Positions 10,948-26,879 of a stretch of DNA of 64,000 nt are shown one piece after another; position 1 is the first letter of the stretch, and every line of letters begins with the position of its first letter. The translations under genes and the position numbers were made by a program. Under the pieces are notes generated by a model. It did no database searches. It saw nothing but the letters and a program-made list of their open reading frames with translations, and had not been told where the DNA came from. The DNA comes from Candidatus Sysuimicrobium tengchongense (GTDB lineage: Bacteria; Sysuimicrobiota; Sysuimicrobiia; Sysuimicrobiales; Sysuimicrobiaceae), in assembly GCA_031460175.1 (NCBI GenBank), contig JAVKGW010000001.1, forward strand, positions 469,738-533,737. The letters run 5' to 3'.

Positions 10948-11037
10948 GGAGGGGTGCCAGAGTGGTTGAATGGGGCGGTCTTGAAAACCGCTAGGACCGA
11001 GAGGTCCTCGGGGGTTCGAATCCCTCCCCCTCCGCCA
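10948..11037 (+). tRNA. tRNA-Ser(UGA): tRNA-Ser (anticodon UGA), class II with long variable arm, CCA encoded
   Basis: Hand-folded cloverleaf. Acceptor GGAGGGG/CCCCTCC, anticodon stem GCGGT/ACCGC with loop CTTGAAA, variable arm GGACC-GAGA-GGTCC, T-arm GGGGG-TTCGAAT-CCCTC, discriminator G plus CCA. Confidence 0.9.
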
Positions 11038-11039
11038 GA
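10985..11039 (+). repeat. attL-like 55-bp direct repeat (anticodon loop to 3' end of tRNA-Ser plus 2 nt)
   Basis: Identical to 26825-26879: AAACCGCTAGGACCGAGAGGTCCTCGGGGGTTCGAATCCCTCCCCCTCCGCCAGA. Confidence 0.9.
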
Positions 11040-11404
11040 AACCCGCTCCAGTACTGGGTCGTGGCGAGCCCCTTTTCCAGGAGGGCGTGGACTTACCCCG
11101 CTTTCGTGGAGAGTGTAGCGCTGAGAGATTCCTGTCCGCTCAACCACCTCCTCTTGAACTCCTCAGGGGATAGGTAACCTAGAGCTGAGTGTCGGCGCCG
11201 GCGGTTGTAGGAGGCTTCCAGGTAGCTGAACAGCACGGAACGGGCCTCCTCCCGGGTTTGGAACCGGTACCGGTCCAGGACCTCCCGGTCCAGGGTGGCG
11301 AAGAACGCCTCCGCACAGGGCGACCTCGTAGGCGTCCCCCTTGCGGCCCATGGACGGCAGGATCCCCGCCGCCCGCAGGCGAGCCCCGAACCGCAGGAGT
11401 GTCT

Positions 11405-11432
11405 CCCCACGAAGTCTTCGGACTTCGTGGGG
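11405..11432. repeat. perfect 12-bp-stem palindrome inside the IS3 remnant (copy 1)
   Basis: CCCCACGAAGTC-TTCG-GACTTCGTGGGG. Confidence 0.85.
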
Positions 11433-11899
11433 CCCCTGGTGTATTGCGCCCCACCACCCACAGCCGGTCCGGCTCGGAGGCCCGGAACTGCTCGGGCCAC
11501 CAGGTCCGGCGCCGGTGTAGCCTGCGGGTCCCGCGCCGTCAACCCGCGTCGCCGGCGCCGGTACGCCCCCGCTAGTCCCGCAGCCCGCATCAGCCGCGCT
11601 CAGTCGCTTGCGCCCGCACCGCACCCCACCGGCCCGCAGCTCCGAGGTCACCCGGGGTGCCCCGTACGTCCCCCGCTACCCTCCCAGATGGGTCGGATCC
11701 GCTCCAGCAGCTCCTGGTCCTCCTGCTTCCGCCGGCTTGGCCTGCGACTGCGCCACGCGTAGTACCCGCTGAGGGAGACCCTCATCTCCCGGCACATCCG
11801 CGCTACCCCGTGGTTCGCCCTCTCCCGCTCCTACCTGGCCAAACGCCTTTGCGGCTTGGACGGTCTTGGGAGCGAAGAAGGCGGCCGCTCCCCCGGGGT

Positions 11900-11926
11900 C
11901 CCCGTGAAGTCGGAGACTTCACGGGG
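11900..11926. repeat. perfect 12-bp-stem palindrome inside the IS3 remnant (copy 2)
   Basis: CCCCGTGAAGTC-GGA-GACTTCACGGGG. Differs from copy 1 by a compensated AC/GT swap in both arms. Confidence 0.85.
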
Positions 11927-12116
11927 TGGCTTCAGGATCTCCCGCTCCTCCCGCAGGATCCGCACTTCCCGCCGATACGGAGGTCTGCTCTTCGGCATCG
12001 TGGACTCCTTTCCTGAGGCTCTTGCCTCTCAGTCTTAGGGTGTCCACGAAATCGGGGCAAGCCTCACATCCGTGATGTGTGTACACCATACCGGACAGTC
12101 CAGGACCGCAGGCCTA

Positions 12117-12485
12117 TCACCGCAGCCGCTCGATCCGCTGCGCCTCGATCTCGTTGTAGAAGGTGTACCGGCCCACCCGCCGGACCTTCTGGAAGACCCC
12201 GGTCACCCGCACTCGTAGCCCGTCCTGCAACCTCTGACGGCCCCAGGCGAAGACCGCCACCGAACTTCCGCCCTCTTCCAGCCGGAAGGTGGTGTAGGGG
12301 TTCCCGGCCCTGGACACCCGCTCCCGGTACCCGGAGATCATCCCTACCACCGTTACCACCTGCCCGTCGTAGCGGTCGGGGTTGCCCAGCAGTGTTGCAA
12401 TGGAAACCAGCTGACCAAAAGCCGAAGAGACCACGAGAACCGCAATCAGCACAGGGATGGTGGGGATGAACCACGGAGCGCGCAT
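12117..12485 (-). CDS. membrane-anchored OB-fold protein
   Basis: N-terminal TM (WFIPTIPVLIAVLVVSSAF), then the pattern I..LL.NP..YDGQVVTVVG.I....E..S..G..YTTF.L.E.G.S.V..F.WG........G..V.V.G.F typical of bacterial OB-fold (BOF/tRNA_anti-like) domains. ATG 12485 is preceded by GAGGAGGTGAGG. Confidence 0.55.
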   Translation of the reverse strand: MRAPWFIPTIPVLIAVLVVSSAFGQLVSIATLLGNPDRYDGQVVTVVGMISGYRERVSRAGNPYTTFRLEEGGSSVAVFAWGRQRLQDGLRVRVTGVFQKVRRVGRYTFYNEIEAQRIERLR

Positions 12486-12520: not shown

Positions 12521-13714
12521 TCAGAGCGTGATGCGGGCCCACGGCAGCCAGTCAACCCAGTAATAGCGGTCGCCGGGGCCACGGTACAGAGTTCCCACCT
12601 GGATCTCCCATTCGGCAGTCGCCGGCCGCAGCGCGCTCACCGGCAGGGCCATCCCGATCAGCGCCTCTCGAGCGATCACCGTGAGCCCTTCCACGTGAAC
12701 GGGTTCCACGTTCTCGATCCTGCGGGCTTCGTCCACCAGGACCACACGTCCGAACACGTATCTCCCGGTAGAGGGGAAATACCGTAACCGCCAGCGGGGG
12801 ACGCTCGATCCGGGTAGCCTCCAGCTCACCGATATCTCCGCATCGCCCATGGGTGTCTCATAGAGCGCGATGAACACGAACAGCGCGCCGCTCCTCACCA
12901 CATAATAGGCCTCGCGGATTGCCAGATTCACGGGCGTCCGGATCTCGCCGTTCTGCGGCGTAGGTCCCTTCCGGCCGATGAGTCTCAGCTCCCGCGGGTC
13001 CAGGCCCACGCCGGGTGTTGGCGTCGGAGCCGGCGTCGGAGGAGTCTGGACGACGGGCGGGGTGGTAAGCGCATACGGAGCCTGCAGAGCGAGCCGCGCC
13101 ACGTCCCGCGCGGCCTCGCTCATCACCGCGAATCCGATCCCTGCCGCGCCCCGAATCCTGCTCACCACGATCCCCACCGCCTCACCCCGGCTGTTCAACA
13201 CCGGGCCGCCGCTGTTGCCCGGGTTCACGGAGGCGTCGAACTGCAACAAGCCCTGATCCACCAGCACCCGGCTGACGATCCCCCGCGTGACCGTGAAGTC
13301 GTCAAACCCGATCACCTCCGCCAGGGGATACCCGAGCACCACCACTTCCTCGCCCACCCGGGGACGACCTGCCGCAAGCGGAATGAAGGGCAATCCCTCC
13401 TCCCCTACCCGCAAGGCTGTCACGCCCAGGGCTTGGCTGGTGTGCGCCACGACCGCCACCATGGGCCGGCGATTCGGGAGCCGCACGGTTACCTCGCTCG
13501 CCCCCTCCACCACGTGAGCGGCCGTCAGCAGAAGCCCTCGGGCGTCGTACACAAACACGGATCCCTGACTCAGGCCGCTCCCCGTTCGTGCCACCACGAT
13601 GGCCACCGCAGGCCTTGCCCGGTCCACCAGATCGGCGACTCCCTGCGCGGCAGCCAAACCTGCGAGGAGCACCGCCAAAAGACCTGCTGTCAAAGATCCC
13701 ACAGACCGCTTCAT
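12521..13714 (-). CDS. secreted trypsin-like (S1) serine protease with Pro-rich linker and unassigned C-terminal beta-rich domain
   Basis: Signal peptide. TAAHVV (His), catalytic Asp candidate not pinned (e.g. ...IGFDDF... in the LGYP block), NPGNSGGPV (Ser). A PTPAPTPTP linker is followed by about 170 aa with no motif I recognise. ATG 13714 follows GGAGGTG. Confidence 0.8.
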   Translation of the reverse strand: MKRSVGSLTAGLLAVLLAGLAAAQGVADLVDRARPAVAIVVARTGSGLSQGSVFVYDARGLLLTAAHVVEGASEVTVRLPNRRPMVAVVAHTSQALGVTALRVGEEGLPFIPLAAGRPRVGEEVVVLGYPLAEVIGFDDFTVTRGIVSRVLVDQGLLQFDASVNPGNSGGPVLNSRGEAVGIVVSRIRGAAGIGFAVMSEAARDVARLALQAPYALTTPPVVQTPPTPAPTPTPGVGLDPRELRLIGRKGPTPQNGEIRTPVNLAIREAYYVVRSGALFVFIALYETPMGDAEISVSWRLPGSSVPRWRLRYFPSTGRYVFGRVVLVDEARRIENVEPVHVEGLTVIAREALIGMALPVSALRPATAEWEIQVGTLYRGPGDRYYWVDWLPWARITL

Positions 13715-13726
13715 CTTCCCCACCTC

Positions 13727-14122
13727 CTACCCGACTTGCTCCTTCAGATCCCGTGGCTCCGAACCAGACAGGCGCCTTCCGCCTCGGCTCATGAGCCTTC
13801 CCCTCTGACTCCTGCGCAGGAGCCCCTTCTGCCGCAGCCCGGAGTCCCACTTCACGGTTCGCACCAACCCCTCCCGGCCTACCACCACTGTCAGACCCCG
13901 CAGCCGGTCTGCTTCCCGGGCCAGGCCGAGCCGGAGCAGAAGCCGGTCCGTGATCCGGTACACCAGGTCCCCCTGGTCGTAGGCAGGTTTGGCCTTCAGG
14001 GCCACTTCCAGGTCTTCGGGCCGCACGCCCCGCTGCTGACAACGCCGCCGGGCGTGCTCGCTGAGCGTTACCTCCCGCACAAAATCCACTTCTTCTCTGA
14101 TCTGCCGCCCAAGCCCCGCCAT
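13727..14122 (-). CDS. DUF4258-like small protein (possible toxin-fold)
   Basis: VTLSEHARRRCQQRGVRPEDLEVAL resembles the DUF4258 H-A-x2-R-x3-RGI core. ATG at 14122. Its stop lies 12 nt upstream of the protease ATG at 13714 and sits inside that gene's RBS. The 292-aa track ORF upstream of this ATG looks spurious. Confidence 0.4.
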   Translation of the reverse strand: MAGLGRQIREEVDFVREVTLSEHARRRCQQRGVRPEDLEVALKAKPAYDQGDLVYRITDRLLLRLGLAREADRLRGLTVVVGREGLVRTVKWDSGLRQKGLLRRSQRGRLMSRGGRRLSGSEPRDLKEQVG

Positions 14123-14237
14123 CGGATCCGTCAAAGTGCAGAAGCATGTCCCGGTGGGCTGTTCCTCTGACGGGCCTGCGCGTCTGGCTTCAAGGAACTC
14201 TTCTGCCCTCTGCCGAAGTAGACGCCCAAACCCCTCC

Positions 14238-14265
14238 GGCTCTTTACAGGCCGGGCCGGTTTCTC
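14238..14265 (+). promoter_or_regulatory. island-specific motif copy A (GGCTCTTTACAGGCC-N8-TTCTC) upstream of the sigma gene
   Basis: The same 15-mer plus N8 plus TTCTC is found on the minus strand at 16023-15996. It ends 10 nt before the sigma-factor GTG. Confidence 0.4.
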
Positions 14266-14275
14266 GGAGCGGGGT

Positions 14276-14821
14276 GTGGATCGGGAAGGGGGCCGGGAGG
14301 CCTTCGAACGGTACCGCAGGGGAGAGGCGGAGCCGGACGCACTTCTTGCCTGCCTGCAGGAGGAAGGCCGACACTGGCTGGCCGTCCACTTCCCCAACCT
14401 GCCCGAGGCCGACCGGGAAGACCTCCTCCAGCAGGCCCTGGTGGCCGCCTTCTATGCCCTCCCCCGTCTCCGCGGGGACTCCTACGACCACCTCCGCTCC
14501 TACTTCCTGACGACCCTCCGCTCGAAGGTCACGGATCACCACCGCCGGAGGTACAGGGAGGTGGTGGGACTCCCCGGGGCGTCCGATGGGCCTGCTGAAC
14601 TCCAACAGGAACTCCCGGCACAGGAGCCGTCCGGGTTCGAGGAAGTGGAGCTCCTGATAGACCTCGCCCGGGTGCTTTCTCCGGAGGAGTACCGGGTGGC
14701 CCGGCTCAAGATGGAGGGCTTCTCAGACCGGGACATCGCCCGCATCCTCAGGAAGGCCCCCGGTACCGTGGCCGCCCTCTGGCACCGGTCCCGTCGGAAG
14801 ATCCAGGGATTCGGCACGTGA
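14276..14821 (+). CDS. ECF-type sigma-70 family RNA polymerase sigma factor
   Basis: Region 2 (EDLLQQALVAAFYALPRLRGDSYDHLRSYFLTTLRSKVTDHHRR) and region 4 HTH (LSPEEYRVARLKMEGFSDRDIARILRKAPGTVAALWHRSRRKI). Confidence 0.75.
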   Translation: MDREGGREAFERYRRGEAEPDALLACLQEEGRHWLAVHFPNLPEADREDLLQQALVAAFYALPRLRGDSYDHLRSYFLTTLRSKVTDHHRRRYREVVGLPGASDGPAELQQELPAQEPSGFEEVELLIDLARVLSPEEYRVARLKMEGFSDRDIARILRKAPGTVAALWHRSRRKIQGFGT

Positions 14822-14849
14822 AGGCCTCGGCCTCGGAGGGTGCAGACCT

Positions 14850-15785
14850 CTACGGGGTCCCGAGCCCCCGGGGACTCCCACTACAGCCGGATCTCGGCCC
14901 GGGATCCCTGGGCACGTTCGGTCGTCCGAGAGCATGAGTCAGGGCCAACCGCGCCACTTCCAGATCCTCGGGATGCGGTCGAGCGGTGGTCAGGCGCTGG
15001 ACCCACAGCCCCGGCAGGAGGACGAACCGGATCCGGGGCTCCGCGAAAGCCGTGAGCCTGAGGATCTCCCCCCAGGCGAGGGCCCAAAGCTGGATCAGCC
15101 CCCTCGTTTGCCCTGTGACCACGTAGCCCGCGGCTAGGAACGGGAGGCTGGCGACCGCGAGAGTGGCCCCACACCGTGTGGAGATCGGCTCCGGCGGCTC
15201 GTCGGGGGCCAGTTCCGGTCCCACCACCACATGCTCGGCTCCGTGCAGCCGCCGCAACCGCTGTATTGCGGACCACGGGCCGGCCATCGCGCGTACAAGG
15301 CCGAGCAGCACAAGCCATCCCCCGACGGCGGGAAACAGCCACCACCGGAGTGAGAACGCCCTCGGCGGCCCCCACAACGTCCACGCACAGCCCACGCGCG
15401 GCCCCACCACCATGATTCCGGACGGGAAGCTCATGGCCCACCATACCCGGGGCTCCCATCCTTTTCGGTAGATGTGCCCGGCAGCGATCCCCGCGCCCCA
15501 GGCGCTCATGAACGCGTCCCACCACCCCGCCCCGGTCTCCGGCCATCCGTTAAGACCAGCCGCCAGCCCCCAGAGAACGCCAGCACCGCAGGCCAACCCG
15601 ATCCGAAAACGGCCCCACCAGAGCGTGGCCAACCAGACCGCGAGTGAGGCCAGGCCGACAGGCAGCGCCGCTGCGTTCGGGAGGAACCTCCCTACGCCCA
15701 ACGCCGCGAGGCAGGAGGCCGTGATACACGCGACCTTCCATGCTTCGCGTCCCGAAGCCCCGTGCCTCAGAGGTCGTCCGTCCAT
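14850..15785 (-). CDS. polytopic membrane protein with DUF1385-like C-terminal half
   Basis: LHGAEHVVV...STRCGATLAV...GLWVQRLTTARPHPEDLEVARLAL matches the DUF1385 HGAEHK / RCGT / LQ.LTT.EP..Q.EVA motifs. The N-terminal half is W/G-rich TM helices. Start assumed at ATG 15785; the track ORF extends to 16106. Confidence 0.5.
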   Translation of the reverse strand: MDGRPLRHGASGREAWKVACITASCLAALGVGRFLPNAAALPVGLASLAVWLATLWWGRFRIGLACGAGVLWGLAAGLNGWPETGAGWWDAFMSAWGAGIAAGHIYRKGWEPRVWWAMSFPSGIMVVGPRVGCAWTLWGPPRAFSLRWWLFPAVGGWLVLLGLVRAMAGPWSAIQRLRRLHGAEHVVVGPELAPDEPPEPISTRCGATLAVASLPFLAAGYVVTGQTRGLIQLWALAWGEILRLTAFAEPRIRFVLLPGLWVQRLTTARPHPEDLEVARLALTHALGRPNVPRDPGPRSGCSGSPRGLGTP

Positions 15786-15953
15786 GGTCCCAAAAGGACG
15801 CGCCTCCCGAAAAGCCGCACATCCCGTGGAGAACTTCCGGCCTCCTCCACCTGGCATGAGCCGCTCGGTCGCGAGGAGCAACCTCCCCGTCCTTCTTACC
15901 GGAAGGCCTTTGTCAGTAGCCTCTGTTTTTCGGAGACGTCCGGGCCGGCCGGG

Positions 15954-16023
15954 TTCTTTACAGGGCCCTGAAAAGTCGGTCCGGAAAGACCGGATGAGAA
16001 TTCCCCTGGGCCTGTAAAGAGCC
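15954..16023. promoter_or_regulatory. inverted pair of the CTTTACAGG(G)CC motif with nested TCCGG-AAAGA-CCGGA hairpin, in the divergent intergenic region
   Basis: TTCTTTACAGGGCC (15954-15967) faces GGCCTGTAAAGAGCC (16009-23). The latter, plus TTCTC at 15996-16000 (minus strand), is motif copy B. Confidence 0.4.
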
Positions 16024-16092
16024 CGACCCCCGACGGGCGTCTCCACATTCGGAGGGCACTGTGCAAAACCATCTGGTTCGGGGAGGCGCCAC

Positions 16093-19000
16093 ATGGGACA
16101 CGCCAACCTGCGGCTGGTGCGGGAGGTCGCTGCCCGGATCCCGGACCCGAAAACCCGTTCGCAGATCCTGGGAGAGGTTGCCGGGATCCTGGGCAGGGCC
16201 GGTGCGCCCCAGGAGTTCGAGCAGGCTTTCGCGGAGGCCCTTCAGGCCTTGCGGGAGGCCGTCACGTCGAAGTTCTCCAGGGCCCTGACAAGATCTCGAC
16301 ATGGCCCGGCTGAACCCTCCGGAGACCTCGCCCCTTCGCCTGCGGAAGACCGGGACGAGGCGGACGACCTGGCTGATGAGGACGCAGACATGGAGTCCGA
16401 AGAGCCAGCACCAGACCTCGACCCACTCCAACTGCTCCCTACCGTGACCCGCGAACGGCTGAAGGCCGTGGAGGAAGCCGCGAGGTCAGGGGACGCGCGA
16501 CACCTGCAGGAGGCCCTGGACCTGGCACTGGTCCCTGTGCTCGAGCGGGACGCCCACGAGCGCGCCGCGGCCCTGGGAACCCTCGCCGGGGTCCTTCTGC
16601 GACTCGGCCGCCCCCAGGAGGCCGAGCGGCTCTTTGACGAAGCCCTGCGGGCCTACCGGGACATCCGCGGTATCCCCGGCCCCTGGGGGATTTACGGACA
16701 CACACAACTCCAACGACAGCGCCAGGTCATCGCCGTCTGGCGCCAGGCACTCCGGGAGCTGCTGCACGAAGGCGAGGCGGAGCGTATCCTGCGGTGGGTG
16801 ATCAGGGGTTCCGACCCCGACTTCAACCCTCTGCTCAAGGAATGCGCTTACCCGTTGGCACGTGCCGGGAAGCTGCACCTCCTCCTCGAGCACCTCCCGG
16901 ACCTGGACACGTTCCGGGACACCATCGCGGCGCTCGCCCGTTCCGGCCATCTCCCCGAGATCTCCCTCGCGGTCAACGCTCTGTGTACCCGACCCCACGT
17001 GTTGTCCGGAACGCCTCTCAACAACCTCCTCCCGCGGCTCGCGCAACTGACATCCATACTCGCCGAACTGGGCCTCCACGAGGAAGCGGAGCGGCTTTCC
17101 CAGCTCGGCCAACGCCGGCTCCTGGCGGCCGCCCGAGCTTTCCTGTCGGAGCACGCCTCGAGCCGTCAACCTCCCTCCCTGCCCGAGTTCGCCCTCCTTG
17201 AGGAGGACCCGCCGCCTCCGCACAAACAGGAGGAGATGGAGCAACATGAGGCACAAGAGCCCGAGATGTGGTTCCAGAAGGCAGAAAGGGCCGTGGAAGT
17301 GCTGGAAGAGGCCTTCGACTTGACCGAGTGGCTCTGCGCCAGCGGGCTGTCCGGGGTGGCCGCAGCCATTCTCGATGCCGTCGAGGACTTTCTCCTCTTC
17401 CTGGAGGAGGAGATGGTGGAGGAGGATCTTGGCGACTCGGCAGAGCTGCTCGTCCGTGCCGTCGCCAACCTGGCGGCGGCCGGTCGCGTGAGAGACGCCG
17501 TGCGACTTCTGGACCACCTTTTCCAAACCGCCGAACACGTCTGGGAAGACTATCTCAAGTACGCCATCGCCGCGGACCCCGATGGCGGCTTCCACTCGTT
17601 CCTGGAAGTCCTGCAAAAGCGCTGTTCGGACGTCGTAAGGGCCTTCCTGGACGCGGGTGCACAAGAGGAAGCCCGGAGGTTCTTCCACGCCGTCAGCGCA
17701 GCCTGCGAGTTCGGCCCGGCAGAAGAACGCAAGGCCTTGGAGCCGGTTTTGCAGCAGCTGATGGAGAAAGGAGACCTGGAGGCGGCCCGGCAGGTCCTGT
17801 GGCTGGCCAGGCCCTCCGTGCGGCGCCAGCTGCTTTCCACCATCGCCGGCTTCGCCTCTTCAGGCACAGCGGAGTGGGCGATCCCGTTCGTGCAGGCCGC
17901 GATGCGGGCGGCCGTGAGAGCCGTGTTCGGGCCGGACAAGATTCTTCTTCCTCGATCGCCGCTCGATGTCGAGGAAGAACCCTGGGAGCGGCCAACCGGG
18001 CGGAAGCGCTCTAGCGTCTGGTTGCCGGCAGATCTCCGCTCGCACATCCGAGGGATCGCTTCAGGGTCGGGATCGGACTTGTGGGTCGAGGAGGCCGCGC
18101 TGGCAGCCACCGCCTGCTGGTCCGACGAGGCCCTCGCCGGGTGCGTCGAGGGGCTGGGAAGCCTCGGCCGCTTTGGGGAGGCCCTGGTCCTCTCGTCCGG
18201 CATCTCTGACGTGCCGACCCGTTTCCGGGTCCTGAACGGCCTTCTCTCCCGGATGGAGCAGGAAGGCTACCTGAGCGAGGTCGAGCAGCACGCGGAGTCG
18301 GAGTTCGACCCGGAAACCCGCGCCGTGCTCCTCGCGGCCATCGGGGATCGCCTCCGGGCGACCGGGCAGACCGAAGAGGCCCGGGCCAGATTCCGGGAAG
18401 CCCTCGAAGCTGCTGAGACGGCGGGCCGGTCTGCGGTGCTGGCCCAGGTCGTCCGCGCCGCGGCCGAGCTGCTCCCGGATGCCTCCGAACGGTGCCTGAG
18501 CTCCGTCAGGGGGATCCCGCGCCCCGAGGCCCGGTGCCAACGCCTTTTGGATCTCGCAGTTCCGTCCGCGCAACTCGGCCTGTGGGACATCGTGCGGGAG
18601 GCCATCGAGGTCGGAGTGGATGTCTACGATGAGGGATGGCCCGACTGGGGCGAGCTGGGGAGGAAGCTCGGGGCCGCTGTGGCCTGCACCGGTTCTGCGG
18701 ACGGGATCATCCAACTCCTCAAGACCGTAGCGGGCTGCCTCAGGTTCGTAGACTCCCCGGAGATCGGAGCGCACGAACTCGTCGTCGGTATCTCCGAGGC
18801 TGTGGCCTGGGAGGCCATCCGGGAAGGCGCCCCCGGGGACCTCGTCGAAGCCATGCTGGGGGAACTGAGCGCCTTCCCCCCTTACGCCTCGCTGATGGCC
18901 CTGGTGGGGCTGGCTTCCGTGTATACGCAGGCAGGGCGAGGGGAGGACGCGAACCGCATTCTCACCCAGATCACCGAGGTGGTGGACTCGGCGTTTGCCG

Positions 19001-20820: not shown

Positions 20821-21357
20821 ATGAAGGCCCACCACCGCACCGCTTCAGCTGCCTTGGCGCTTTTTCTCCTGTTCCTGGGAAGCGCCTCGCCCCTGCTGGC
20901 CGGAGGTCGCCTGCTCCTGTTCAGCGACGACGAGCACCGTCGGTTTCTAGGGTGCCTGAGCTGTGGCCGGTTCGACCCGGACTCCGTGCACAACCAGCTC
21001 AGTCGCTACGGGAGCCGCTATGCCCTCTACAGCATCTGGAACCCTGACGGCCCGTACAGATTCCCTTACTCCACCTACAGTGCCTGCAACCCATTCGTCA
21101 CGCGGCCTCCCGTCGTGCTGGGCGAGCACTGGACCTGCTACGGCCGTCTCACCCTCATCCTCTACCTTCCGGACGCCATCCGTGAGTCCGCGGCGGTCAC
21201 CTGGCTGCTTGGTGGCGTGCCGCAGTGGGTGAGGGACAGCGATGGACATCTGTGCAGCCCTTGGGTTGCCACGGCGACGGATGCGGGGATGTTCCAGGCA
21301 AGGAGGAGCGGATCGCTCCGAAAAGTGTTAATAAAAGTAAATAAAGTAAAAGGGTAG
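20821..21357 (+). CDS. secreted Cys-containing protein, function unknown
   Basis: Signal peptide (AALALFLLFLGSASPLLAG). The mature part has five Cys (FLGCLSCGRFDPDS...YSACNPF...WTCYG...HLCSPW). AT-rich K/V-rich tail. Confidence 0.6.
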   Translation: MKAHHRTASAALALFLLFLGSASPLLAGGRLLLFSDDEHRRFLGCLSCGRFDPDSVHNQLSRYGSRYALYSIWNPDGPYRFPYSTYSACNPFVTRPPVVLGEHWTCYGRLTLILYLPDAIRESAAVTWLLGGVPQWVRDSDGHLCSPWVATATDAGMFQARRSGSLRKVLIKVNKVKG

Positions 21358-21380: not shown

Positions 21381-24300
21381 ATGCGGACAGAAAGCGTACC
21401 GGCCCTCGCCGCTCTGACGTCCGACCAGCTCAGCCAGGTGACTCAATACCTCAACGCGTGGAAGCGCTCTCTCCTCGATCTCTCGGCTCGCAATCGGCTG
21501 CTTCATTTCCACAAAGGCCTGGCGACCCGTGTCCGCCTCGACCGCCCGGGGGTCCATGACCTCTACATGGCGCTCGCCGTCGGGGAGCGGTCGCTGGCTT
21601 TCCCCGGGCCACGAGGCATTGCCGTCGACGACCTTGAGCTCCAAGAGGCGGTCGACCCTTCGGATCGCGTCGCTCCAGGCGACCTGGAGACCGCTCCGCC
21701 GGTCAAGACCCTGAAGGACCTCAAGGACCTCTACCGAAAGCTCGAGCGCCTGCGCCGCGGAACGCGCACGATCTACGAAGAGCAGGGGGTCCACACGCTC
21801 TTCCTCGCGCTCGGTCTGCTGCAATGGCGAGAGGCGGACCACTCTGAAGAGACGATCGATAGCCCTCTTCTGCTCGTTCCGGTCCGTTTGGAGCGAACCG
21901 AGGAGCGCTACCTGCTCTGTCCGCACGAGGACGACGTCGAGGTCAACCCCGCTCTTGCTTACCGGTTGCAGCGCGATTTCGGCTTGACCCTGCCAGGGCT
22001 CGACGGCAATGCCGAGGAGCAGGCTCCCGCTGTGGCACTCGACCGGTTCTTCGGGGAAGTTCGAGATCTCGCGGCCCGCAAGGGCTGGACCGTCGTAGAC
22101 GAGGCATGGCTGGCGCAGTTCGCCTTCTACAAGCTCCCGATGTACCGGGACCTCGAGGCGCCCGGGGTGGCGGAAAGTGCGGCCACGCATCCCGTGGTGG
22201 CCGCACTGTGCGGCTTGCGGGAGCGGTCCGAGCCAGGGCCCGTCGACGTGCGAAGGGCCGAGGAGGAGTATGCCCGGCCGGAGCTATTCCCGGTCCTTGA
22301 CGCCGACTCAAGCCAGCTGGAAGTGATGGAGCAGGTCCGCCAGGGCAGGACCATTGTGGTGCAAGGGCCGCCTGGCACGGGAAAGAGCCAGACCATCGTC
22401 AACGTCATCGCCCAGGCCCTGCGCGAGGGGAAGAGAGTGCTGTTCGTGAGCGAGAAGAGGGCCGCTCTCGAGGTGGTCTACGAGCGATTGGAAAAGCTAG
22501 GTCTGGCCCGCCTGTGTCTCGACCTCCACAGCAGCCGGGCCAGCCGAAAGGCCGTCGTCGAAGACCTCATGGGCAGCCTGGACGACCTGAGGGCCTGGCA
22601 GGACCGAAGCGACCGGGCTGCTTTCGAGCAGTACCAGCGGCTGAGGAGTCAACTCGACGAGTATGTCCATGAATTGCACCGGCCCCGAGATCGTCAGGGA
22701 CGCAGCGCGTTCCAGGTCCATGGAACCCTGGCCCGCTTGCGGGACGTACCGCTGGTGACGGCACGACTTCCCTTCGAACGGATACTTGACGTCGAGCCTG
22801 ACCAAGAGGCTCGGGTCATCGAGTTGCTCGGACGGATCGCCAGGCTTGGTGTGTGGGACCACCAGCGAACCCACCCATGGAAGGACGCTGCACCGTCCGA
22901 CGATTTCGCGCCGATTCCCGACGCGATGGCGTCCCTTTGCAGCACGCTGAACCGAGTTTACGACAGCCTGCTGGCCCTTGCCGGCGAGATGGCCGAGTTG
23001 ACGGGGGTGCGGCCTGCCACGGCGCGGGAGGTGGAAGAACACCTCGATCTCGTGCGGCATCTGGCAAAAAGACCGTTGGTGACCATCCGGGAGTCATGGC
23101 TCAGCGCCGAGGCGGGGCAGCGAGCGTCGCTGGTACGATTCGCACGGGAGCTCGGCGAACGCATGGAACTGAGAAGGCAAGGCCTCGCATACCTTGAAAG
23201 CCTGGGCGTGGATCCGTCAGCCGACGCCGGCGAGTTCCGGTTGCTGTACGGGATGCTGGACCAGGCTGAGAAAGGCTCGTGGTACCGCCGGTTGGTCACC
23301 GAGTGGAAGGCGCAGCGGCGGCTGGGGCAGCTCTTGCGCAGGAAGCTGCGGCGCCGAGAGGCGGCAGCCGTGGTTCGGGCGCTGTTCGCCGTGCAGGATG
23401 CAGAGGCGTGGGTAACGGCCAACGGCGACCGCATCCGTACCGAACTGGGGCTGGAGCCTGCCCCGGATTGCCTGAACCGGACGGCCGATGCCACCGTGGA
23501 AGCCGTCGTGTGGACGGCCTCCACCGTGGAGGCGGCGGGAGGTCAGTTGCCTGAGGCACTTCGGCGAGCGATACTCGCCGATGACCCGGCGGCGATCCGG
23601 GCCAGGGCAGAGGCTCTGCTCGAACGGGCGTCATCCGCTCTCCTTGCGTTGGGGAGCGCGACCGCCGACGAGCACTTCGTCCGACTGTTCCCGAAGGGCG
23701 TCGGCGGGTACTCGTGGCACGATTGGCCTTTGGAGGAGGCCCGGGAAACCACTGTGACCTGGGAACGGGAAGCGGGCCGTTTGCCGGAGTGGCTCGAGCA
23801 CCTGCGGCAGATGCGGGCTGCGGAAGAAGCCGGGCTGTCCCCGTTTCTGACTGCTTGTCAGGCTGCGAGGGTTCCTGCGCGCCGTCTGCCCGATGCCTTT
23901 AAACGGGCCTACTTCACACAGTGGTTGCGGCGTGCGTACGAGAGTTCTGAGGTGTTGCGATCCTTCCAGGGGTACGAGTGGGAGGAGCTGCGCCGCAGGT
24001 TTCAAGAGCTGGATCGGCGCCTCCAGCAAGAGGCTGTAAAGGCGACCTTCGAGATGATAGCGTCGCGCCTGCCCGACCCCCTTCCGGCCGGCGAGTTGAC
24101 CGTCCTCTCTCGTGAGGCGAATAAGAAGCGAAGGCATCTGCCCCTTCGGAAGCTGTTCCCGCAGATCCCCAATCTGCTGTTGGCCGTCAAGCCGTGTCTC
24201 ATGATGAGTCCCCTCTCCGTGGCGACGTACTTACCCTGGCAGGTCTTCTCGTTCGACCTGGTCATCTTCGACGAGGCGTCGCAGCTGTTGCCGGGTGATG

Positions 24301-25466
24301 CCATCGGGGTGCTGTTGCGGGGCCAGCAGGCGGTGATCTTCGGGGACAAGAAGCAGATGCCGCCCACTGATTTCTTCCAGGCTCACGTGGAGGGCGACGA
24401 GGAAGAACCCGACGCGCAGGACTACGAGAGCATCCTCGACATCGCCAGCACCTATTTCCCTGGGCCGATGCTCAAGTGGCATTACCGAAGCCGCGACGAG
24501 CGACTGATCGCGTTCTCGAACAAGCATTTCTACGGGAGAACACTGGTGACGTTTCCGTCTCCCCGGCTGGACGGGGTTGACACAGGGATCTCCTTCGTCT
24601 ACGTCCCCGACGGCGTCTACGGGCGGGGAGGCTCGCGCACCAACGTGGTTGAAGCCAGACGGGTGGCCGAGCTTGTGCTGGAACACTGCCGCACCCGGCC
24701 GGACCTATCGCTCGGGGTCATCACCCTGAGCATCGAACAGCGGGATGCCGTCGAAGAGGCGCTGCGGCGGCTCATGAGGGAGCATCCGGAGCTGGTCTTG
24801 CCCCAAAAAGAGGAGTTCTTCGTCAAGAATCTGGAGACCGTGCAGGGAGACGAGCGCGACGTCGTCATCCTGGATATCGGATACGGCCCGTCGGAGCCCG
24901 GCGGGACCCCGTCGCTTCAGTTTGGGCCACTCAACCGAAGCGGAGGGGAACGGCGGTTAAACGTCGCCATCACCCGGGCCCGGTATCGGATGATTGTGGT
25001 CTCCTCGATGCAACCAGAGCAGTTGAAGGGCATCGTGCATCAGGCGCGCTGGGAAGGCCCCAAGTTGCTCGCGGAGTACCTCGAGTATGCCCAGCGTGGC
25101 GGTATGGGTGCCGGAGTGGATGGCACAGGGCAGCCGGAGAGCGAGTTCGAGGAAGCAGTCCGGGACGCGCTGGTCGCGCGGGGGTATCAGGTCGACTGCC
25201 AGGTTGGAGTCTCAGGCTACCGTATCGACCTGGCTGTGAGAGACCCGGATGCGCCGGGGCGTTACATCGTGGGGATCGAATGCGACGGGGCGACCTACCA
25301 TTCGGCGCGCACGGCCCGTGACCGTGACCGCATCCGGCAGATGGTGTTGGAATCCCTCGGGTGGCACATCGTCCGCGTGTGGTCCACGGACTGGATCCGT
25401 GACCCGGACAGGGTCACCGACCGGCTGGTGAAGTACGTTGAGGACGTTCGATGGAGAGACGGTTGA
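21381..25466 (+). CDS. DUF4011-type SF1 (Upf1/DNA2-like, AAA_11/AAA_12) helicase fused to a C-terminal Vsr/DUF559-like PD-(D/E)xK nuclease domain
   Basis: N-terminal LLDLSARNRLLHF / TLFLALGLLQW / SPLLLVPVRL (DUF4011). Walker A GPPGTGKS (22365-22388). FDLVIFDEASQ (Walker B/motif II). VGDKKQMPPT-like FGDKKQMPPTDFF. WHYRSRDERLI. GDERDVVI, LNVAITRAR (motif VI). C-terminus YRIDLAV...VGIECDGATYHS...GWHIVRVWSTDW (about 25146-25400). Confidence 0.85.
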   Translation: MRTESVPALAALTSDQLSQVTQYLNAWKRSLLDLSARNRLLHFHKGLATRVRLDRPGVHDLYMALAVGERSLAFPGPRGIAVDDLELQEAVDPSDRVAPGDLETAPPVKTLKDLKDLYRKLERLRRGTRTIYEEQGVHTLFLALGLLQWREADHSEETIDSPLLLVPVRLERTEERYLLCPHEDDVEVNPALAYRLQRDFGLTLPGLDGNAEEQAPAVALDRFFGEVRDLAARKGWTVVDEAWLAQFAFYKLPMYRDLEAPGVAESAATHPVVAALCGLRERSEPGPVDVRRAEEEYARPELFPVLDADSSQLEVMEQVRQGRTIVVQGPPGTGKSQTIVNVIAQALREGKRVLFVSEKRAALEVVYERLEKLGLARLCLDLHSSRASRKAVVEDLMGSLDDLRAWQDRSDRAAFEQYQRLRSQLDEYVHELHRPRDRQGRSAFQVHGTLARLRDVPLVTARLPFERILDVEPDQEARVIELLGRIARLGVWDHQRTHPWKDAAPSDDFAPIPDAMASLCSTLNRVYDSLLALAGEMAELTGVRPATAREVEEHLDLVRHLAKRPLVTIRESWLSAEAGQRASLVRFARELGERMELRRQGLAYLESLGVDPSADAGEFRLLYGMLDQAEKGSWYRRLVTEWKAQRRLGQLLRRKLRRREAAAVVRALFAVQDAEAWVTANGDRIRTELGLEPAPDCLNRTADATVEAVVWTASTVEAAGGQLPEALRRAILADDPAAIRARAEALLERASSALLALGSATADEHFVRLFPKGVGGYSWHDWPLEEARETTVTWEREAGRLPEWLEHLRQMRAAEEAGLSPFLTACQAARVPARRLPDAFKRAYFTQWLRRAYESSEVLRSFQGYEWEELRRRFQELDRRLQQEAVKATFEMIASRLPDPLPAGELTVLSREANKKRRHLPLRKLFPQIPNLLLAVKPCLMMSPLSVATYLPWQVFSFDLVIFDEASQLLPGDAIGVLLRGQQAVIFGDKKQMPPTDFFQAHVEGDEEEPDAQDYESILDIASTYFPGPMLKWHYRSRDERLIAFSNKHFYGRTLVTFPSPRLDGVDTGISFVYVPDGVYGRGGSRTNVVEARRVAELVLEHCRTRPDLSLGVITLSIEQRDAVEEALRRLMREHPELVLPQKEEFFVKNLETVQGDERDVVILDIGYGPSEPGGTPSLQFGPLNRSGGERRLNVAITRARYRMIVVSSMQPEQLKGIVHQARWEGPKLLAEYLEYAQRGGMGAGVDGTGQPESEFEEAVRDALVARGYQVDCQVGVSGYRIDLAVRDPDAPGRYIVGIECDGATYHSARTARDRDRIRQMVLESLGWHIVRVWSTDWIRDPDRVTDRLVKYVEDVRWRDG

Positions 25467-25933
25467 GGGACAGAACGGGCGTAGGACGGGAAAGGCCTGG
25501 GGGACCGGCTGCAACTGAACACCAGAGTGGCCAGTATCAGAAAGGTGTGCGCACCTCGGGCCTGGGCCCGGGCTATGACCCGCAGGCGCGTACACTGGCC
25601 TCGAGGGTCATCGGCGGTCCTCCCCGTCGCCCCATGGGGGGGTGTTGTCCAACGGGAAGGGTACGTCATACGACCCTCTTTCTTCACCGTAAACAGAACT
25701 CTGAAACGGTTCGCCCAAGTCCGTGGACCTCCACGACGCCGCCTTCCGGATGAAGGGCGCGGATCGCCCGCAGGGCTGTGTCCCGGTCCAAGGCAGGCTG
25801 GCTCACCGCCCGTACCTCCTCCACCAGGACCGTGATTTGCGTACTTGTCGGGAAGAGGAACTTTTGGTGCGATGCTTCACGGGATACACCTCCTTCTAAC
25901 TGGGTTGCGGTGCAGGCCGCGGCCTAATCTGTC

Positions 25934-26140
25934 TCAGGATCCGCGGCGCTGCGCCCCTTTCGAGGGCTTGCCTTCTTCTTTGCCCTCCAGCCAACGGAGG
26001 ACCGCCTGACGCCGGACGCGGATCGGCCGCCCCCACCGGACGACCCCGGGAACCAGCCCGCGCCGAATCGCGGCGTACAGGGCCTGGCGGCTGACGCCGA
26101 GGAGCGCCGCTAACGCACGAACCGTCATCAACTCGCCCAT
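25934..26140 (-). CDS. excisionase/AlpA-like helix-turn-helix DNA-binding protein
   Basis: MTVRALAALLGVSRQALYAAIRRGLVPGVVRWGRPIRVRRQAVLRWLE is the typical Xis/MerR-superfamily winged HTH. Located at the distal end of the island. Confidence 0.65.
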   Translation of the reverse strand: MGELMTVRALAALLGVSRQALYAAIRRGLVPGVVRWGRPIRVRRQAVLRWLEGKEEGKPSKGAQRRGS

Positions 26141-26258
26141 TGTTGACCTCCGCGCTGCATTCGCATCTGAGGGTATGAAAGCGCCTCGCCCCTGACGAAG
26201 GGAAGATCAGGGGGGCAGAGGGCCCCGATCTTCCAGACCAGAGAAGGAGGCGCGGCAG

Positions 26259-26760
26259 ATGCCGTATATCGCCTTTGACGTGCACAAGCACTACACGCTG
26301 GTACTGGGCGGTGGAGGAGGTGGAAGAGGCGGGCTGCGCCGGGAGTAGGGTTCATCCTGGCGGGGGTGATCCGCACGGAGGTCGGGGCCGTGAGCCGGTT
26401 CAGCCGGCCTGAGCACTAGAGCGGCCTACGCGGAAGTGGCCCTGCGGGTCCACGAGTCTGGGGGAAACGTCGGTATGAGGGTTGCGGATGGAGGCCAACC
26501 ACTGCCTGAAGTGGGCGTTCGTGGAGGCCGCCAACGTCTGCTGCCGTCTGCGGCAACGGTACCCCAACGACACACCAGTCGGCTGTACGAGCGCCTGCGC
26601 CCGGGCCGCCCGCCGGCGGGCGCGGTACTGGGCCCGACCCGGGGAATACCGGCGCAAGGCCCGAGAAAGGGTCCGACGGTCACGCCTCCGGCGGGCGGGG
26701 AGTTGGCACCAAATTGTCACCACTCGGCGCCACGCAGGGCCCAACACAGGACGACAGGAA
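26259..26760 (+). pseudogene. IS110-family transposase pseudogene (multiple frameshifts and an internal deletion)
   Basis: MPYIAFDVHKHYTL (N-terminal DEDD motif region) then a stop. Later fragments in other frames: VGFILAGVIRTEVGAVSRFSRPEH, VHESGGN, ANHCLKWAFVEAANVC, RLYERLR. Confidence 0.7.
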
Positions 26761-26824
26761 GCAACTATCGAACATCTAGGGTCCGCGCATGACTTAACTT
26801 CTGGCCACTACTATCGAACAGAGC

Positions 26825-26879
26825 AAACCGCTAGGACCGAGAGGTCCTCGGGGGTTCGAATCCCTCCCCCTCCGCCAGA
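26825..26879 (+). repeat. attR-like 55-bp direct repeat (orphan 3' part of tRNA-Ser)
   Basis: Perfect copy of 10985-11039. No tRNA 5' half upstream of it. Confidence 0.9.

What the first reader, a model, noticed from the sequence alone, without database searches (positions are those of the whole stretch)
10948..26879. 15.8-kb genomic island integrated in the anticodon loop of tRNA-Ser(UGA), now apparently immobilised
Seen in the sequence: the last 53 nt of the tRNA plus 2 flanking nt (10985-11039) recur perfectly at 26825-26879, with no tRNA 5' half at the second site. This is the classic attL/attR signature of tyrosine-integrase insertion that regenerates the tRNA. The repeat starts within the anticodon loop (tRNA nt 38), a known crossover sublocation for tRNA-targeting integrases. 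I find no integrase ORF inside. The tRNA-proximal end, where int normally sits, is occupied by a gutted IS3 element (11088-12066). The distal end carries an Xis/AlpA-like gene (25934-26140) followed by an IS110 pseudogene (26259-26760). Inference: the island was captured and then lost its integrase to IS activity, fixing the cargo. The perfect 55-bp repeat suggests integration was fairly recent or that the repeats are maintained.
Basis: partly seen in the sequence, partly recalled or inferred. Interest (0 to 1): 0.7.

Follow-up and report, generated by a model that had tools for sequence, protein, structure and literature searches.

The report
Integrase-less island at tRNA-Ser gene
About 15.8 kb of foreign-looking DNA lies between a serine tRNA gene and a perfect 55-base copy of that gene's tail, which is the usual scar of a site-specific mobile element, but the DNA no longer encodes an integration enzyme, so it is an ordinary, decayed genomic island.

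Summary
tRNA-Ser(UGA) is at 10948-11037. Its last 53 nt plus 2 flanking nt (10985-11039) recur perfectly at 26825-26879, and that second site has no tRNA 5' half. The 15.8 kb between the copies is compositionally foreign: GC 66.8% against 70.0%, GC3 0.81 against 0.88, tetranucleotide z up to 6. It holds an IS3 relic, an excisionase-family HTH gene, an IS110 relic, a ProA/Hhe-like helicase-nuclease (a candidate anti-phage gene), an ECF sigma/anti-sigma/TPR/protease cluster, and a 1204-aa ORFan. No recombinase or relic of one was detected in the island, and no recombinase gene is called elsewhere in the 64 kb. No empty site was found. However, a relative about 91% identical in the flank carries a different 4.3-kb insert between the same tRNA and a degenerate fragment. 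Another metagenome contig shows a primase-type element integrated next to an orthologous IS3 relic, a tandem accretion. A 21-nt arm-like motif shared by these att sites survives beside attR but has been deleted beside attL. Best reading: a decayed integrative element, CIME-like, a known kind. The claim that IS activity removed the integrase is unproven. "Recent integration" conflicts with an IS3 relic that predates about 17-20% divergence.

The parts
10948..11037 (+). Intact tRNA-Ser(UGA) gene. By the integration model, its 3' part from 10985 onwards is island-derived.
   Evidence: ARAGORN; Rfam RF00005 at 55.6 bits
10985..11039 (+). attL copy of the 55-bp perfect direct repeat, running from the anticodon loop to 2 nt past the CCA end
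11040..11087 (.). 48-nt residue of the island's tRNA-proximal (P') arm. Relative to L048 and L034, about 250 nt are missing, including the arm-like motif.
   Evidence: alignments; motif search
11088..12066 (-). IS3-family relic about 980 bp long. Both inverted repeats are kept, the DDE core is largely deleted, and there are stops and frameshifts.
   Evidence: rve_2, rve_3 and HTH_21 in frames -2 and -1; inverted repeats read; orthologous copy in L048
12117..12485 (-). 122-aa protein with a signal-peptide-like N-terminus and a weak OB-fold match
   Evidence: Pfam tRNA_anti-codon, E 3e-4, below cutoff; sequence
12521..13714 (-). 397-aa secreted trypsin-like (HtrA-type) serine protease
   Evidence: Trypsin_2, E 2.5e-26; NCBIfam HtrA-type partial hits
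13727..14080 (-). 117-aa protein with no family match
   Evidence: gene called in the MAG; no Pfam or NCBIfam hit
14276..14821 (+). ECF-type sigma-70 family sigma factor
   Evidence: Sigma70_r2 and r4_2; TIGR02937 at 49.7 bits against a cutoff of 42.9
14850..15881 (-). Multi-pass membrane protein with a partial DUF1385 match. The start codon is uncertain.
16093..19707 (+). 1204-aa protein with one TPR region. It is otherwise an ORFan.
   Evidence: TPR_12 only; no PDB relative. In 1.84 billion representative proteins the only strong hit is its own cluster.
19704..20813 (+). 369-aa anti-sigma-like protein: zf-HC2, one TM segment, C-terminal TPRs
20821..21357 (+). 178-aa protein with a signal-peptide-like N-terminus and no family match
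21381..25466 (+). 1361-aa protein with DUF4011, an Upf1-like SF1 helicase and an MTES_1575/DUF559 nuclease. It is a candidate anti-phage protein of the ProA/Hhe kind.
   Evidence: Pfam; PADLOC PDC-S37 at 1223 bits and Hhe at 640 bits; NCBIfam ProA at 1177 bits (cutoff 1500) and Hhe at 861 bits (cutoff 2000); PDB Upf1/SMUBP-2 helicase hits
25934..26140 (-). 68-aa excisionase-family (HTH_17 / AlpA-like) DNA-binding protein
   Evidence: HTH_17, E 3.6e-11; TIGR01764 above cutoff; 49% identical to the HTH_17 protein of element X in L048
26259..26690 (+). IS110-family transposase relic: an N-terminal 'MPYIAFDVHKHY' stretch, then C-terminal pieces spread over three frames. The end coordinate is approximate.
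   Evidence: six-frame reading; hand-joined composite hits Transposase_20 at 28.9 bits against a cutoff of 21.3
26702..26722 (+). Arm-like 21-nt motif GTTGGCACCAAATTGTCACCA. It matches 17 of 21 positions of the motif found in the att arms of L048 and L034.
26764..26820 (+). Two exact copies of ACTATCGAACA (26764-26774 and 26810-26820) just upstream of attR. They are possible recombinase or Xis binding sites.
   Evidence: 2 found, 0.24 expected, 4 of 100 shuffles reach 2
26825..26879 (+). attR: displaced 3' fragment of the tRNA, 55/55 identical to attL, with no 5' half
26926..28176 (-). Chromosomal right flank: MFS transporter gene, conserved next to a tRNA fragment in relative L034

Best explanation
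The segment 11040-26824 is the decayed remnant of a site-specific integrative element. It entered tRNA-Ser(UGA) by recombination in or near the anticodon loop. The element brought its own copy of the tRNA's 3' part, so the gene stayed intact at attL. The original 3' part was displaced 15.8 kb away, next to the MFS gene, at attR. The element has since lost every recombination, replication and transfer gene it had. What remains is the two core repeats, one degenerate arm region beside attR, an excisionase-family HTH gene, two dead insertion sequences, and cargo. The cargo is a ProA/Hhe-like helicase-nuclease that probably acts against phage, an ECF sigma/anti-sigma module with secreted protease and TPR proteins, and a 1204-aa ORFan.

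In the terms of the literature this is a CIME-like island: att sites kept, integration and transfer genes gone. It cannot move by itself. Any movement would need an integrase supplied by another element that targets the same tRNA. Loss of the arm sequence next to attL probably cripples even that.

Shown: the repeat, the tRNA, the gene content, the absence of a detectable recombinase, the foreign composition, different inserts at the same site in relatives, and the tandem arrangement in L048.
Inferred: that a tyrosine integrase made the insertion, that the crossover was in the anticodon loop, that the 21-nt motif is an arm binding site, and that the helicase-nuclease defends against phage.
For: - The tRNA and a perfect 55-bp co-oriented 3' fragment are confirmed. 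This is the defining signature of tDNA islands (Islander, PMC4383910).
- The identity block starts in the anticodon loop. The same boundary class is seen in L048 (block starts at the first loop base) and in L051 (tRNA-Val-like fragment next to a Phage_integrase gene). The anticodon loop is a known sublocation (bioRxiv 10.1101/2020.11.02.365908, citing Williams 2002).
- Foreign composition: GC 66.8% against 70.0%. Tetranucleotide distance reaches z = 6.1 over 14-26 kb and returns to background at both ends. GC3 is 0.81 against 0.88, Mann-Whitney p = 1e-4.
- Mobile-element relics sit at both ends: IS3, excisionase-family HTH, IS110.
- No recombinase was found. There is none in the ten main ORFs. 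There is none in six-frame translations of the four stretches that lack a confident gene, at E <= 0.1. tblastn with the L051 integrase gives no hit below E = 0.8 anywhere in the 64 kb. No such gene appears in the precomputed annotation of window 574-64000.
- Site variability: L034 has the same tRNA, a 4.28-kb different cargo (Uma2, DUF5615/DUF433, an FAD oxidoreductase), an 88%-identical fragment and the same MFS flank. L048 has element X (HTH_17, DUF3854 primase-like), a 59-nt perfect fragment and then an orthologous IS3 relic. L049 has the intact tRNA followed by the flank that follows the fragment in L048.
- The 21-nt motif, allowing up to 4 mismatches, occurs only in att arms: window 26702, L048 655 and 306, L034 10333. 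It is missing beside the window's attL, where only 48 nt separate the tRNA from the IS3 end.
Against: - No empty site (tRNA directly followed by the MFS flank) was found. All assemblies of this species are about 100% identical and all carry the island. Insertion is therefore inferred from the signature, from composition and from a different insert in a relative, not from presence/absence.
- No integrase relic exists, so the recombinase type is inferred.
- The perfect 55-bp repeat does not fit a long-dead element. The IS3 relic and its insertion site are shared with a copy only 80-83% identical. Neutral drift over that time should have changed roughly 5 of the 55 bases at attR. This figure is my estimate: half the pairwise divergence times 55.
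- The arm-site reading of the motif rests on four occurrences in three sequences. Two of them have 4 mismatches.
- The helicase-nuclease scores below both NCBIfam trusted cutoffs and lacks the first ~350 positions of the ProA profile.
Confidence: 0.8

Rival explanations
1. The island is not fossilised. It is a cis-mobilisable element that arrived, or last recombined, recently. Another element that targets the same tRNA-Ser, such as the primase-type element X seen in L048, supplied the integrase. The two elements travelled together as a tandem, and the helper then left, leaving fresh and identical att cores around old cargo and old IS relics.
For: - The 55/55 repeat is perfect even though the IS3 relic predates 17-20% divergence.
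- L048 shows exactly the tandem intermediate: element X, then a perfect fragment, then the IS3-bearing island end. L049 shows the same flank without X.
- The island's HTH_17 protein is 49% identical to that of X.
- The IS3-bearing island end occurs in the window lineage and in the L048 lineage but not in the closer relative L034, which fits horizontal movement.
- Accretion and cis-mobilisation are documented for CIMEs (PMC5704250, PMC6323972).
Against: - The arm-like motif beside attL is deleted. If the motif is needed, this blocks further excision, although the deletion could postdate arrival.
- No helper element or integrase lies in the 64 kb.
- No circular or empty-site sequence was found in the one metagenome scan.
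- The integrase of X was not seen either. L048 and L052 are 5-kb contigs.
Confidence: 0.3
2. The island is old and vertically inherited. The attR fragment stays identical to the tRNA because of occasional gene conversion from the selected tRNA copy, or simply by chance in a slowly mutating lineage.
For: - Both IS relics are heavily decayed.
- The IS3 insertion is shared with a diverged copy.
- All sampled genomes of the species carry the island.
Against: - In relative L034 the equivalent fragment has drifted to 88% identity and was not homogenised.
- 55 bp is a short substrate for conversion across 15.8 kb.
- Identity stops exactly inside the anticodon loop, where a site-specific crossover would put it. 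Conversion would give a ragged boundary.
- Foreign composition persists.
Confidence: 0.15
3. The 15.8 kb is not one element. It is the fused product of two or more successive insertions at this tRNA, whose internal att site was later deleted. The older left part starts with the IS3 relic. The right part ends with the HTH_17 gene.
For: - Tandem arrays at this very site exist (L048).
- The tetranucleotide deviation is uneven: z = 0.8-1.7 at 10-16 kb and 3-6 at 14-26 kb.
- GC drops to 62-66% only in 21-26 kb.
- The only traces of a mobility module sit at the right end.
Against: - No third copy or degenerate copy of the tRNA 3' part lies inside the island, allowing up to 3 mismatches in 25 nt.
- No internal arm motif is present.
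- The evidence is compatible with one element of mixed cargo.
Confidence: 0.25
4. There was no site-specific integration. The second copy arose by a local duplication or rearrangement of the tRNA gene's 3' half, and the DNA between the copies is native.
For: No empty site and no integrase were found.
Against: - The copy is co-oriented and begins inside the anticodon loop.
- The intervening DNA is compositionally foreign and carries IS relics and an excisionase-family gene.
- Relatives have other inserts bounded the same way.
- A related element with a tyrosine integrase abuts a tRNA fragment that begins at the same loop position.
Confidence: 0.03

Closest known systems
tDNA-integrated genomic islands as defined by Islander (Hudson, Lau and Williams 2015, PMC4383910; Williams 2002)
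   Same: An intact tRNA gene and a co-oriented displaced 3' fragment mark the two ends. The island restores the gene. The size is typical. [quoted passage not shown]
   Different: No integrase gene lies inside, so Islander's own filter would reject it. It is a decayed rather than a 'putatively active' island.
Cis-mobilisable elements (CIMEs) derived from ICEs and IMEs, e.g. the ICESt1-related CIMEs of Streptococcus thermophilus (Pavlovic 2004 and Bellanger 2011, as reviewed in PMC5704250; definition in PMC6323972)
   Same: Identical attL and attR cores are kept while the integration and transfer genes are gone. A tandem accretion with an incoming element at the same target is seen in a related population (L048).
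   Different: Mobilisation is untested. The parent element is unknown. One arm region appears to be deleted. The host is an uncultured high-GC lineage, not a Firmicute.
Hhe (Gao et al. 2020, from my own knowledge; NCBIfam NF042953), 'anti-phage protein ProA' (NF058533) and PADLOC candidate PDC-S37
   Same: The architecture is the same: DUF4011, an Upf1-like SF1 helicase and a Vsr/DUF559-type nuclease (MTES_1575). The match to PDC-S37 is full-length.
   Different: It scores below the trusted cutoffs of both NCBIfam models and lacks the N-terminal ~350 positions of the ProA profile. No activity is known. It sits at the end of a co-oriented four-gene run, and whether that run is an operon is unknown.
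AlpA/Xis-primase type integrative mobilisable elements: HTH_17 followed by a DUF3854-DUF3631 primase/helicase-like protein, as in L048, L051 and L052
   Same: The island's HTH_17 protein is 49% identical to that of element X. Both lie at the tRNA-distal end of an insert in the same tRNA-Ser, and both are followed by a similar arm motif.
   Different: The island has no DUF3854 gene, no 355-aa zinc-ribbon gene and no integrase. Only the HTH gene and the arm survive.

Membership tests
tDNA-integrated genomic island (Islander definition) | Intact tRNA gene plus a co-oriented fragment of its 3' part elsewhere in the replicon | tested here: met
   55/55 identity, same strand, 15,840 nt apart, with no tRNA called at the second site
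tDNA-integrated genomic island (Islander definition) | Tyrosine integrase gene inside the interval | tested here: not met
   There is no Phage_integrase, Resolvase or Recombinase hit in the main ORFs. There is none in the six-frame translation of the four stretches without a confident gene. None appears in precomputed gene calls. tblastn with the L051 integrase is negative.
tDNA-integrated genomic island (Islander definition) | Absent from, or different in, related genomes | tested here: inconclusive
   No empty site was found. The same-species assemblies are identical. L034, about 91% identical in the flank, has a different 4.3-kb insert between the tRNA and a degenerate fragment.
tDNA-integrated genomic island (Islander definition) | Composition differs from the host | tested here: met
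   GC 66.8% against 70.0%, tetranucleotide z up to 6.1, GC3 0.81 against 0.88 (p = 1e-4)
Anticodon-loop sublocation class of tRNA-targeting integrases | attL/attR identity block begins in the anticodon loop and runs to the tRNA 3' end | tested here: met
   the block starts at 10985, the base after anticodon 10982-10984. The L048 block starts at the first loop base.
Anticodon-loop sublocation class of tRNA-targeting integrases | Strand exchange takes place within the loop | not testable with these tools
   This needs the cognate integrase and in vitro or in vivo recombination mapping.
CIME (cis-mobilisable element) | Retains attL and attR | tested here: inconclusive
   The cores are intact and identical. 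The arm-like motif is present beside attR (17/21) but deleted beside attL. Whether the arms are required is unknown.
CIME (cis-mobilisable element) | [quoted passage not shown] | tested here: met
   no recombinase, relaxase, T4SS or primase gene. Only an excisionase-family HTH gene remains.
CIME (cis-mobilisable element) | Can be excised and transferred after accretion with a functional element | not testable with these tools
   A tandem arrangement is seen in L048, but no excision or transfer data exist.
Hhe / ProA anti-phage helicase-nucleases | DUF4011 + SF1 helicase + Vsr-like nuclease in one protein | tested here: met
   DUF4011 at 31-196, AAA_11 and AAA_12, MTES_1575 at 1256-1351.: PDC-S37 at 1223 bits.
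Hhe / ProA anti-phage helicase-nucleases | Score above the curated NCBIfam cutoff | tested here: not met
   ProA 1177.5 against a cutoff of 1500; Hhe 861 against a cutoff of 2000
Hhe / ProA anti-phage helicase-nucleases | Protects against phage | not testable with these tools
   This needs expression in a host and phage challenge.
IS3 family | HTH and rve (DDE) transposase between terminal inverted repeats that start with TG | tested here: met
   The element is a relic. It has rve_2, rve_3 and HTH_21 hits. The inverted repeats TGGACTTACCCCGCTTTCGTGGA and TGAGGCTTGCCCCGATTTCGTGGA can be read. The reading frame is broken and the core is deleted.
IS110 family | DEDD N-terminal domain and Transposase_20 C-terminal domain | tested here: inconclusive
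   Single frames give no hit. A hand-joined composite hits Transposase_20 at 28.9 bits. The N-terminal domain was recognised only by eye.
Excisionase (Xis) family | Winged-helix 'excise' domain | tested here: met
   TIGR01764 at 34.9 bits against a cutoff of 28.8. Whether it acts as an excisionase or as an AlpA-like regulator is not testable here.

The most novel reading that the evidence does not exclude
The island is a living cis-mobilisable defence cassette. It has no integrase of its own but rides with primase-type elements that target the same tRNA-Ser anticodon loop. That would explain why its att cores are perfect while its IS relics are ancient. In addition, its co-oriented block (1204-aa ORFan, anti-sigma-like TPR protein, 178-aa secreted protein, ProA/Hhe-like helicase-nuclease) would work together with the nearby ECF sigma factor as a new sigma-regulated, multi-gene anti-phage system.
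Probability: 0.12. Interest if true: 0.5.

Novelty: new member of a known kind. Interest (0 to 1): 0.22.

Why it matters
This is a clean, precisely bounded example of how integrative elements decay into fixed cargo at a tRNA hot spot, in a poorly known uncultured high-GC lineage. The comparison set may be of modest use to people who study defence islands and element decay. That set holds a different insert at the same site in a close relative, a tandem accretion in another population, and a shared arm motif. The perfect repeats around old relics raise a small testable question: were they renewed by trans-mobilisation or by gene conversion? None of this changes current understanding. tRNA-linked islands, integrase loss, IS accumulation and defence cargo are all well documented.

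Tried and rejected
- Empty site. One scan of species-representative genomes with the MFS flank protein found no close relative; the best match was 46% identical. Exact-protein look-ups found only assemblies about 100% identical to the window, all with the island. The metagenome scan for the species-specific tRNA 3' half gave three contigs, none of them an empty tRNA-MFS junction. L050 has the tRNA followed by an unrelated oxidoreductase-like gene (my reading of its translation, not scanned), so it cannot serve as an empty site.\n- Tandem-island idea. I tested whether the ORF just right of attR is an integrase, which would have made this a tandem array. It is an MFS transporter.\n- Relatives of the island's HTH_17 protein. 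The search found only its own cluster.\n- Viral contigs. Scans for the tRNA 3' end, the arm motif and the DUF3854 protein gave only jumbo-phage tRNA arrays, one unrelated hit, or nothing.\n- Integrase position. L051 has the integrase next to the distal fragment. L048 and L052, which are closer, have a 355-aa zinc-ribbon protein there and no integrase. No conclusion was drawn.\n- Organism and MAG accessions. A literature search gave no paper.\n- 'ProA'. A literature search found nothing relevant.\n- Four look-ups failed because my ORF starts differed from the called genes or because the paper is not held.


Full report
**1. The observation**

ARAGORN finds a single tRNA in the 64-kb window: tRNA-Ser, anticodon TGA, at 10948-11037 on the + strand. 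Rfam's tRNA model matches the same place at 55.6 bits and matches nothing else in the window.

Direct reading and the repeat finder show that 10985-11039 is identical to 26825-26879 at 55 of 55 bases, in the same orientation. The neighbouring bases differ on both sides. A 25-nt core of the repeat occurs exactly twice in the window, and none of 100 shuffles gives even one match.

The anticodon is 10982-10984, so the repeat begins at the next base, inside the 7-nt loop CTTGAAA. It runs through the variable arm, T arm, acceptor strand and CCA to 2 nt beyond the gene. The second copy has no 5' half and is not called as a tRNA.

**2. What lies between the repeats**

Frame-specific GC, Pfam, PADLOC, NCBIfam and the gene calls of public assemblies give the same map:

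- 48 nt after the tRNA comes an IS3-family relic, 11088-12066 on the - strand. It has rve_2/rve_3 and HTH_21 matches in two different frames. Both terminal inverted repeats are still readable. It is only about 980 bp long and most of the catalytic core is gone.
- A leftward set follows: a small signal-peptide protein with a weak OB-fold match, a secreted trypsin/HtrA-like protease, and a 117-aa protein.
- Next are an ECF sigma factor and a membrane protein with a partial DUF1385 match.
- A rightward run of four tightly spaced genes follows: a 1204-aa protein, a zf-HC2/TM/TPR anti-sigma-like protein, a 178-aa secreted protein, and a 1361-aa protein.
- The 1204-aa protein has one TPR stretch and otherwise no relative. 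A HMMER search of 1.84 billion representative proteins found only its own cluster at a strong score. The 14 other hits (E 9e-15 to 8e-4) are weak and mostly match the short TPR stretch. No PDB relative was found.
- The 1361-aa protein combines DUF4011, an Upf1-like SF1 helicase and an MTES_1575/DUF559 nuclease. It matches the PADLOC candidate PDC-S37 over its full length (1223 bits). It also matches the NCBIfam models 'anti-phage protein ProA' (1177 bits) and Hhe (861 bits), both below their trusted cutoffs.
- At the right end lies a 68-aa excisionase-family HTH gene, 25934-26140 on the - strand (TIGR01764 above cutoff).
- After it comes a badly broken IS110-type relic. Pfam recognises it only after three frames are joined by hand.

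**3. No recombinase**

- None of the ten main ORFs has a recombinase domain.
- Six-frame translations of the four stretches without a confident gene (11040-12120, 13700-14300, 14800-16100, 25440-26830) give no Phage_integrase, Resolvase, Recombinase or other recombinase hit at E <= 0.1.
- tblastn with a tyrosine integrase from a related element (L051) finds nothing better than E = 0.8 anywhere in the window.
- The precomputed domain annotation of window 574 to beyond 64000 lists no integrase.
- The ORF immediately right of attR, which would have been an integrase if this were a tandem array, is an MFS transporter.

**4. Foreign composition**

The island has 66.8% GC against 70.0% for the rest of the window. 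The tetranucleotide distance from the background rises to z = 3-6 across 14-26 kb and falls back to background on both sides. Third-position GC of the ten island genes averages 0.81, against 0.88 for sixteen flanking genes (Mann-Whitney p = 1e-4).

**5. Relatives**

No empty site was found. The species-representative genome collection holds no close relative. Every assembly that encodes identical flank or island proteins is about 100% identical to the window and carries the island. These assemblies are four NCBI MAGs and several Logan contigs.

The informative sequences come from other populations:

- **L034**, a JGI contig, is 90-92% identical to the window across about 6 kb of the right flank. 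It has tRNA-Ser(UGA), then 4.28 kb of entirely different genes (Uma2, a DUF5615/DUF433 pair, an FAD oxidoreductase). A degenerate 57-nt copy of the tRNA's 3' part (88% identical) and the same MFS gene follow. It has no integrase either.
- **L048**, another JGI contig, has no intact tRNA. It has a perfect 59-nt fragment that begins at the first base of the anticodon loop.
  - On the fragment's upstream side lies part of a different element, which I call X. X has a DUF3854 primase-like gene and an HTH_17 gene whose product is 49% identical to the island's. It also has a 355-aa zinc-ribbon protein.
  - On the fragment's downstream side, after about 300 nt, lies the end of an IS3 relic. This relic is 80-83% identical to the window's and has a recognisably homologous flank outside the inverted repeat. 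The IS3 insertion is therefore the same historical event in both.
  - L048 thus shows a tandem: tRNA, X, fragment, IS3-bearing island.
- **L049** has the intact tRNA followed by the flank that follows the fragment in L048. This is the state without X.
- **L051** carries a DUF3854 protein 82% identical to that of X. It has a 374-aa Phage_integrase gene abutting a tRNA-Val-like 3' fragment that also begins at the anticodon loop.

The site and the loop boundary are therefore used repeatedly by a family of integrative elements, at least one of which has a tyrosine integrase.

**6. An arm-like motif**

The 21-mer GTTGCCGCCAAATTGCCGCCA, allowing up to four mismatches, occurs in these sequences only at four places:

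- 103 nt upstream of the window's attR (17 of 21 positions);
- about 120 nt upstream of the fragment in L048, inside X (by definition the exact query sequence);
- about 155-175 nt downstream of the fragment in L048;
- about 155-175 nt downstream of the tRNA in L034 (20 of 21 positions).

The alignments show that the regions around these sites are homologous at a modest level. I read the motif as an arm-type binding site of the cognate recombination system, and this is an inference. In the window only 48 nt separate the tRNA from the IS3 end, and the stretch that holds the motif in L048 and L034 is missing. Two exact copies of ACTATCGAACA lie 15 and 61 nt upstream of attR and nowhere else in the window.

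**7. Interpretation**

The best-supported reading is a decayed integrative element fixed at tRNA-Ser(UGA), with att cores kept and the integration, replication and transfer functions gone. The literature calls such an element a CIME when the att sites remain usable (PMC6323972, PMC5704250). The tRNA-plus-fragment signature and its meaning are as in Islander (PMC4383910). The anticodon loop is one of three known sublocations (bioRxiv 10.1101/2020.11.02.365908, citing Williams 2002).

I differ on three inferences:

- Nothing shows that IS activity removed the integrase. The IS3 relic keeps both ends and I see no target duplication. That allows an IS-mediated rearrangement but does not prove one.
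- The original position of the integrase cannot be told. It is distal in L051 and absent from the distal end in X.
- 'Recent integration' is not straightforward. The IS3 relic inside the island predates 17-20% sequence divergence. Over that time a neutral 55-nt copy should have picked up about five changes (my estimate), as the L034 fragment indeed has. Yet the window's copy has none.

Three explanations remain for the perfect copy. The island may have moved recently as an already decayed unit, using an integrase in trans; the L048 tandem is the expected intermediate. The copy may be kept identical by gene conversion from the tRNA. Or it may be chance. I favour the first of these three, at modest confidence. 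The later loss of the attL arm would then have finished the immobilisation.

**8. Function of the cargo**

The helicase-nuclease is most likely an anti-phage protein of the Hhe/ProA kind. This follows from its architecture and its family matches only. The sigma/anti-sigma pair, the secreted protease and the TPR proteins look like an envelope-signalling module. Whether that module is linked to the helicase-nuclease is unknown.

**9. Verdict**

The feature is real, precisely bounded and correctly recognised. It is an ordinary kind of thing: a new member of the class of decayed tRNA-linked islands. Interest is low to moderate. The only slightly unusual points are the conflict between perfect repeats and old relics, the tandem seen in a related population, and a large ORFan among the cargo.

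Noticed in passing
window 16093-19707 (+): The 1204-aa island protein is an ORFan. HMMER against 1.84 billion representative proteins finds only its own cluster at a strong score, and the few other hits are weak and mostly match the short TPR stretch. It has no PDB relative. Its coding signal looks genuine (GC3 0.80).
   Followed up: partly
window 11630-11693: The only six differences between the window and MAG GCA_031458615.1 over 23.6 kb are clustered in 64 bp inside the IS3 relic. This suggests other IS3 copies in the genome, and either assembly mixing or conversion.
   Followed up: no
window 10695-10820: A 21-nt unit is repeated about six times in tandem inside the 104-aa gene (10574-10888, - strand) just upstream of the tRNA. 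L034 keeps only a truncated version of this gene.
   Followed up: no
window 32980-33620 and 36005-36645: A 641-bp direct repeat, 99.7% identical, lies inside two paralogous CBS+BON genes that bracket a Usp gene and a GAF-HisKA_3 kinase gene. It is a recent duplication or a gene conversion.
   Followed up: no
L034:10508-10597 compared with L049:36-125: The two relatives have identical sequence upstream of the tRNA and an identical 5' half. Their variable arms and T stems differ in the 3' half. This pattern is expected if integrating elements replace the 3' half. The L034 fragment is itself a mosaic of the two types.
   Followed up: partly
L048:538-4156 and L052: Element X has a 355-aa zinc-ribbon protein, one or two HTH_17 genes, and a DUF3854-DUF3631 primase/helicase-like protein. 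A 250-aa protein and a weak NikA-like protein follow. It is an IME-like element that targets tRNA-Ser. Its integrase was not seen.
   Followed up: partly
window ~2884-3599 (-): An adjacent HEPN and nucleotidyltransferase (MNT-type) gene pair, a likely toxin-antitoxin pair.
   Followed up: no
window ~41398-43980 (-): An 860-aa STAND-type regulator with NB-ARC/AAA_22, TPR and a LuxR-type HTH. It lies beside a nitric-oxide reductase (NorB), hemerythrin/DUF2249 and Crp genes, which suggests a nitrosative-stress region.
   Followed up: no
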